A DNA stretch of 64,000 bases from assembly GCA_964016885.1 (NCBI GenBank), contig CAXHJY010000419.1, forward strand, positions 2,046 through 66,045, given 5' to 3'. The position numbers and the translations under genes are program-made. Numbering within the stretch: the first letter of the stretch is position 1; each line of letters begins with the position of its first letter. The stretch comes from Eledone cirrhosa. Taxonomy: Eukaryota. Positions 58,093 through 63,757 of this stretch are shown here, piece after piece. Under the pieces are notes generated by a model, which worked only from the letters and a program-made list of their open reading frames with translations, did not search any database and was not told the origin of the DNA.

Positions 58093-63757
<5,665 letters not shown>

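What the first reader, a model, noticed from the sequence alone, without database searches (positions are those of the whole stretch)
60385..60410. Array B terminates within 1 nt of the predicted ribozyme cleavage site
Seen: full units read ...caggaacgatg|tactagtttc on the plus strand, where | is the predicted cut. The last unit stops at ...caggaacgat (60402) and passes directly into (AT)n. In RNA orientation the array therefore starts at (C)AUCGUU, the 5' end of the 3' cleavage product. Inference: the inserted DNA was copied from a self-cleaved RNA, and the multimer arose from rolling reverse transcription of a circle or from an incompletely cleaved multimer. A random breakpoint in a ~466-bp unit would rarely land here, so this is a genomic footprint of in vivo cleavage.
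Basis: partly seen in the sequence, partly recalled or inferred. Interest (0 to 1): 0.85.

Follow-up and report, generated by a model that had tools for sequence, protein, structure and literature searches.

The report
Ribozyme repeat ending near its cut
This is one of thousands of copies of a small self-cutting RNA repeat that jumps around an animal genome, and its end lying beside the cut site is a coincidence, because copies end there no more often than anywhere else nearby.

Summary
Array B (58695-60402, minus strand, 3.7 units of 466 bp) carries a type I hammerhead per unit, cut GUA|CAUCGUU. Its 5' end lies 1-3 nt from the cut, because the last AT is shared with the (AT)n flank. The family has about 17,000-18,600 units in this 3-Gb genome. 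Of 79 junctions mapped between +10 and -5, 23 fall at +3..-3 (31.6 expected if uniform) and one at +1. End rates are about 0.12%/nt at the cut, 0.16 upstream and 0.19-0.22 downstream. 18,645 copies read through the cut against about 126 that end there. The sister family (array A) is flat too. So this is no footprint of cleavage. It is a non-LTR retrozyme that behaves like a non-autonomous Penelope-like element: fixed 3' ends at two sites, scattered 5' ends joined by microhomology, head-to-head arms, (AT)n targets. The by-product is more interesting than the finding: inverted insertions take one arm from each 3' start site (29 of 31; 8 of 8 in family A), and all units of an insertion share one variant. 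That fits two-ended priming on a circular or uncleaved RNA.

The parts
58695..60402 (-). Array B: one-armed insertion of a 466-bp hammerhead retrozyme; in RNA sense units +2..466, 1..466 (468 bp), 1..466, 1..310
   Evidence: units 99-100% alike
58996..59040 (-). Type I hammerhead 1; predicted cut between 59003 and 59002
   Evidence: stem I and II fold; helix III only a short palindrome
59462..59506 (-). Type I hammerhead 2; predicted cut between 59469 and 59468
59930..59974 (-). Type I hammerhead 3; predicted cut between 59937 and 59936
60397..60402 (-). 5' junction: 3' arm of stem I without its +1 C; last AT shared with the flank (boundary +2 to +4)
58695..58753 (-). 'Tail' (+252..+310) between the family's two fixed 3' ends; array B ends at the long one (+310)
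60401..63757 (.). (AT)n with CA interruptions, 5' flank and target
58089..58697 (.). (AT)n, 3' flank of both array B and array A
56218..58096 (+). Array A: second, unrelated 311-bp hammerhead retrozyme, 6.0 units; 5' end at about +133 to +140, 3' end at +140; a control inside the window whose 5' end is far from its cut (56396|56397)

Best explanation
Array B is a young copy of an abundant non-LTR retrozyme moved in trans by a Penelope-like (PLE) protein. The protein nicks (AT)n and starts cDNA at a fixed internal site of the RNA (+310 here; +251 is the second site). It copies on through several units and through the hammerhead cut site, because the template is a closed circle or an uncleaved multimer. 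Copying stops at about 0.15-0.2% per nucleotide at no preferred place, and the cDNA end is joined by a few nucleotides of microhomology, either to the (AT)n target (as here) or to a second cDNA primed from the other DNA end (inverted arms). The window's end at +2..+4 is one such AT-microhomology join that happens to lie beside the cut. Shown: anatomy, copy number, fixed 3' ends, flat 5' ends, read-through, inverted arms. Inferred: RNA intermediate, circular template, PLE protein as the mover, ribozyme activity.
For: Flat 5' ends: 23 of 79 at +3..-3, 1 at +1, ratio to uniform 0.73 (95% interval 0.49-1.01), flat in 21 young and 58 old copies. Rates 0.12, 0.16 and 0.19-0.22%/nt at, above and below the cut. 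18,645 exact read-throughs. Family A flat: at most 30 of 86 in seven positions round the cut against 56 in nine positions below; none of 19 array ends within 20 nt of the cut. Fixed 3' ends, one of each per inverted pair: 29 of 31, 8 of 8 assignable in family A. One unit variant per insertion over up to 26 units and both arms. Direct PLE-retrozyme fusions at L076, L081, L059.
Against: A pilot on the first 58 loci showed 5 of 16 nearby ends at +4..-3, an excess that the larger sample did not repeat. Position +4 holds 12 of 79 ends (Poisson P 0.008 before correcting for 15 positions; all inverted joins at a self-complementary CG, one locus counted twice). Rates are somewhat higher below the cut than at or above it. 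No autonomous PLE with a matching terminal repeat was found. No RNA data. Searches were classified by eye from short listings.
Confidence: 0.8

Rival explanations
1. This copy was made from a self-cleaved RNA: RT ran to the 5'-OH end at +1, lost 1-3 nt and was joined to (AT)n. Cleaved templates would be a small minority class hidden in the flat background.
For: The end is 1-3 nt from the cut. Pilot excess 5 of 16. +2 and -2 direct (AT)n joins number 7 and 5 against 3 at -5. Rates below the cut are about 1.3-1.5 times those above. R2 elements have ribozyme-defined 5' junctions (PMC3774820, abstract start).
Against: No peak in 79 junctions or in family A. Even if every end at +3..-3 came from cleavage, they are about 126 against 18,645 read-throughs. 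In the anole PLE, hammerhead mutants insert normally and no reads end at the cut (PMC11167929).
Confidence: 0.12
2. A single unit was inserted and then amplified in place (slippage or unequal crossover), as proposed for vertebrate retrozymes; array ends then say nothing about the template.
For: Model put forward in bioRxiv 10.64898/2026.07.22.740005 (discussion passage). Identical units within an array are expected from it too.
Against: Both arms of an inverted pair are often many units long, share one variant, and still end at the two fixed 3' sites. Arm starts are at unrelated phases of the unit.
Confidence: 0.1
3. The junction at 60402 is an assembly join inside a long (AT)n tract of a small unplaced contig.
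For: The window fills nearly all of a 66-kb contig, and the flank is 3.3 kb of simple repeat.
Against: The same +2 join occurs at 7 other loci on chromosome-scale contigs; (AT)n flanks are normal for the family.
Confidence: 0.04

Closest known systems
Animal non-LTR retrozymes (Cervera and de la Pena 2020, PMC7229834)
   Same: Non-coding tandem repeats with one type I hammerhead per unit, GC under 45%, dispersed as dimers to multimers; proposed to spread by RT copying of circRNA, with PLEs as candidate movers.
   Different: Unit of 466 bp is above the typical ~300 bp. Cleavage and circRNA are untested here. In the passages and discussion read, no genomic boundary analysis is given.
Penelope-like elements (Craig 2021 PMC8557442; Arkhipova 2013 PMC3846280; Frangieh 2024 PMC11167929)
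   Same: 5' truncation, head-to-head inverted arm, tail at one end only, two internal RT start sites, AT-rich or (TA)n targets, hammerhead in the repeat, microhomology at 5' junctions.
   Different: No ORF; tail is about 59 nt (26 nt in family A) rather than 30-40; both arms can be many units long. No sequence likeness to the terminal regions of the two Neptune-like families inspected.
R2 retrotransposon HDV-like ribozyme (PMC3774820)
   Different: Here the 5' junctions are not concentrated at the cut.
L1 twin priming (PMC2837659, abstract start only)
   Same: Two primings from the two DNA ends give an inverted structure.
   Different: Here both arms start at fixed internal sites and can each exceed one unit.

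Membership tests
Non-LTR retrozyme | Type I hammerhead in each tandem unit | tested here: met
   by motif and pairing; Rfam gave no match at gathering score
Non-LTR retrozyme | Short, low-GC, non-coding unit | tested here: met
   466 bp, GC 0.37; only a 133-codon low-complexity open frame
Non-LTR retrozyme | Dispersed monomers to multimers | tested here: met
   15,541-18,645 exact marker matches; arrays mapped
Non-LTR retrozyme | RNA self-cleaves | not testable with these tools
   needs a transcription assay
Non-LTR retrozyme | Monomeric circular RNA accumulates | not testable with these tools
   needs RNA; only indirect genomic signs
Non-autonomous Penelope-like element | Tail at one end; two fixed 3' ends | tested here: met
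   29 of 31 assignable pairs; 8 of 8 in family A
Non-autonomous Penelope-like element | Head-to-head inverted 5' arm | tested here: met
   55 pairs in 93 loci; 52 of 79 junctions inverted
Non-autonomous Penelope-like element | AT-rich or (TA)n target | tested here: met
   3' flanks printed; window flanks
Non-autonomous Penelope-like element | Shares its pseudo-LTR with an autonomous PLE | tested here: inconclusive
   No likeness to two Neptune-like families in the stretches seen; other families not examined; direct fusions at 3 loci
Ribozyme-defined 5' junction (R2 type) | 5' ends of insertions peak at the cut | tested here: not met

The most novel reading that the evidence does not exclude
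These arrays record two-ended rolling-circle retrotransposition: one PLE complex primes both ends of a cut (AT)n target, one at each of two fixed sites on a single circular retrozyme RNA, rolls round it up to 16 or more times per arm, and joins the two cDNA ends by microhomology. That would explain the PLE tail-on-one-end and head-to-head structure, and would be genomic evidence that animal retrozymes move as circles with the hammerhead silent during copying.
Probability: 0.5. Interest if true: 0.6.

Novelty: new member of a known kind. Interest (0 to 1): 0.33.

Why it matters
As proposed (a footprint of in vivo cleavage) it does not stand. The negative result is still useful: it says the RNA that gets inserted has no free end at the hammerhead cut, which fits the circular-template model proposed for animal retrozymes and the in vitro finding that unprocessed RNA is the PLE substrate. 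The one-arm-per-start-site rule and the shared variants give a cheap genomic test of how PLEs build their tandem and inverted insertions, which PMC8557442 calls still undefined.

Tried and rejected
Rfam at gathering score: no match in the window. Pilot excess at the cut (5 of 16 nearby ends among 101 anchors): not repeated in the larger sample; 3 of those 5 are also in it. One search had a mis-registered filter and served only as a census of family A (2,105 units). (87 against 9) looked like a peak, but includes an older subfamily that the control pattern excludes; within the young variant the counts are 3-4 in six positions against 9 in twelve, the same rate after allowing for the filters. 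Sequencing runs: no RNA holder listed; laying four contig sets showed no place where many molecules begin or end and was uninformative. Autonomous partner: 3' regions of one Neptune-like family and both ends of an 821-codon family (11 of 30 loci inspected) share nothing with the unit; the latter has its own hammerhead-like motif. Pfam found no family in 4 of 5 PLE pieces and GIY-YIG just under cut-off in one, so 'Neptune-like' rests on recalled motifs (YRDD, W-x-x-P-P, CxC, C-terminal nuclease). Earlier scan findings: none. The organism was not identified.

Full report
Numbering. Positions are in RNA sense: +1 is the C after the predicted cut, -1 the A before it.

Observation. Array B spans 58695-60402, with a 466-bp period and 3.7 copies, between two (AT)n tracts. 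On the minus strand each unit has CUGAUGA, a short stem II, GAAAC-UA-GUA and then CAUCGUU, which pairs with AACGGUG before the core. A short palindromic helix III is typical of animal type I hammerheads, which work as dimers (PMC4209133, passages). The last copy lacks the +1 C and ends in AT that could equally be flank, so the boundary is +2 to +4. Rfam has no match at gathering score.

The family. The genome is 3.0 Gb. Exact markers give 15,541 (+4..+25), 17,116 (+10..+25) and 18,645 matches (+8..-8, across the cut). Ten top-scoring loci and the 58 loci holding the first 100 matches on C1 show 3' ends near +251 or +310, scattered 5' ends and many head-to-head arms.

I then asked the whole genome for copies that hold +25..+10 but do not continue at -6 and -10: 421 matches, the first 100 listed. 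By eye 78 were junctions and 22 were indels or internal deletions. I fetched the first 30 rows, the other rows judged to be junctions and three doubtful ones; about 10 plain indel rows were not fetched. A script found 91 anchors, dropped 12 and kept 79. Counts from +10 to -5: 8, 9, 1, 3, 9, 7, 12, 3, 5, 1 | 3, 6, 5, 1, 6. The six positions +3..-3 hold 23, against 31.6 if uniform (ratio 0.73, interval 0.49-1.01). The 21 young and 58 old copies are both flat. 52 junctions are inverted arms, 10 are (AT)n, 17 other. The only high bin is +4 (12, all inverted, at a self-complementary CG; one palindromic locus counted twice; uncorrected P 0.008).

Controls. Upstream, -8..-20: 334 matches, 71 of the first 100 junctions by eye. 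Downstream, +31..+16: 260 matches, about 75 of the first 100 junctions by eye; its anchor count was not measured and was taken as 12,800-14,500. After allowing for the filters, rates are 0.12%/nt at +3..-3, 0.17 over +10..-5, 0.16 upstream and 0.19-0.22 downstream. About 126 copies end at +3..-3; 18,645 read through. Direct joins to (AT)n, from 52 distinct loci among the first 100 of 183 rows (by eye): +10 20, +9 5, +7 4, +6 3, +5 2, +4 2, +2 7, -1 1, -2 5, -5 3. The pattern leaves more room for early positions, but the peaks sit where the unit ends in A, AT or TA. The window's join is one of the +2 kind.

Second family. Array A (311 bp, unrelated except in the core) has 2,105 units by one marker. 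Its own 5' end is near +133..+140. Of 87 matches ending in +13..-4, one was dropped and 86 read by eye: 56 in nine positions below the cut region, at most 30 in seven positions round it. None of 19 ends from nine fetched arrays and the window lies within 20 nt of the cut.

How it works. In 93 loci the script found 55 head-to-head pairs; 24 could not be assigned at both 3' ends; of the other 31, 29 have one short (+251) and one long (+310) end, 2 long/long, none short/short (P 5e-7 against even odds). One-armed copies end mostly at the long site (23 against 6, 10 unassigned), as array B does. Family A shows +140 with +166 in 8 of 9 pairs, the ninth unassigned. This is the PLE tail, found at one end of an insertion (PMC8557442, PMC3846280, passages) and explained by two internal RT start sites (PMC11167929, main text read). 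In family A, ten arrays carry seven unit variants, each shared by all full units and both arms apart from three single substitutions; the largest has 26 identical full units. That fits repeated copying of one monomer, though an uncleaved transcript of a uniform source array would look the same. Young B arrays are mostly identical to the window's and do not discriminate. Neptune-like PLE pieces lie in about 13 of the fetched loci; at L076, L081 and L059 they are fused directly to the unit, and at L076 no remainder of the PLE lies beyond the unit's 3' end, which suggests a template switch in one event. A young family with intact 821-codon frames exists, but its ends do not resemble the unit, so the mover is inferred and not identified.

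Comparison with what is known. It meets the testable features of non-LTR retrozymes (PMC7229834, passages and discussion), which are proposed to be copied from circRNA by a PLE, and a 2026 preprint links them to PLE terminal repeats (10.64898/2026.07.22.740005, first part and passages). It fails the R2-type feature of a ribozyme-defined 5' junction (PMC3774820, abstract start). Searches showed no paper with a boundary histogram or the one-arm-per-start-site count for animal retrozymes; no supplements were read and subscription journals are not covered, so this may be in print.

Verdict. A real junction in a known kind of element, and a chance one (0.8); a cleavage-made end cannot be excluded for this single copy (0.12). 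Interest 0.33, carried mostly by the genome-wide signs of two-ended copying on a circular or uncleaved RNA.

Noticed in passing
L221-L230: In 19 of the first 100 rows of the downstream control the A5 run at +26..+30 is a long A tract. Ten fetched: 18-26 A; five sit in intact units, one has an extra G before the run, four lie at or beside a 5' junction. Either a sublineage or RT slippage.
   Followed up: partly
L076:1769-2637, L081:1-1525, L059:3615-4241 and 5735-6361: Retrozyme arms fused directly to Neptune-like PLE sequence, with a few bases of microhomology at L076; possible template switches between the two RNAs.
   Followed up: partly
L192-L220: A young, abundant PLE family with C-terminal nuclease motifs: 150 of 150 scored matches 97-100% alike, several with open frames of 821 codons; a hammerhead-like motif with a long stem II lies upstream in L208.
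   Followed up: partly
window 56218-58096 and L231-L239: Family A forms long, very uniform two-armed arrays (up to 16 or more units per arm); a cleaner system than family B for testing rolling-circle copying. Older subfamilies differ just after the cut.
   Followed up: partly
L189 (C1:425884108-425884313): Both arms of one inverted insertion end at +2 with about 150 bases beginning as (AT)n between them.
   Followed up: no
window 59200-59340 and equivalents: Each B unit holds an internal (AT/AC/GT) stretch that folds into a long hairpin and changes length between copies.
   Followed up: no
window 57640-57660: One unit of array A has an 8-base duplication just after its cut site, and the neighbouring unit has three single-base losses, possibly read errors.
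   Followed up: no
window 1-8552 and 36623-39778: Long uniform satellites: 27-bp unit, 317 copies; 77-bp unit, 41 copies.
   Followed up: no
window 20591-22390 and 44473-45280 (+): Open frames of 599 and 268 codons that look like non-LTR retrotransposon reverse transcriptase (likeness recalled, not searched).
   Followed up: no
window about 28200-28900 and 33100-33500 (-), 16270-16710 (-): Short open frames that read like exons of a conserved host gene among the repeats; positions approximate, not searched.
   Followed up: no
window 52876 (-): An isolated hammerhead-core-like motif outside the two arrays; pairing not checked.
   Followed up: no
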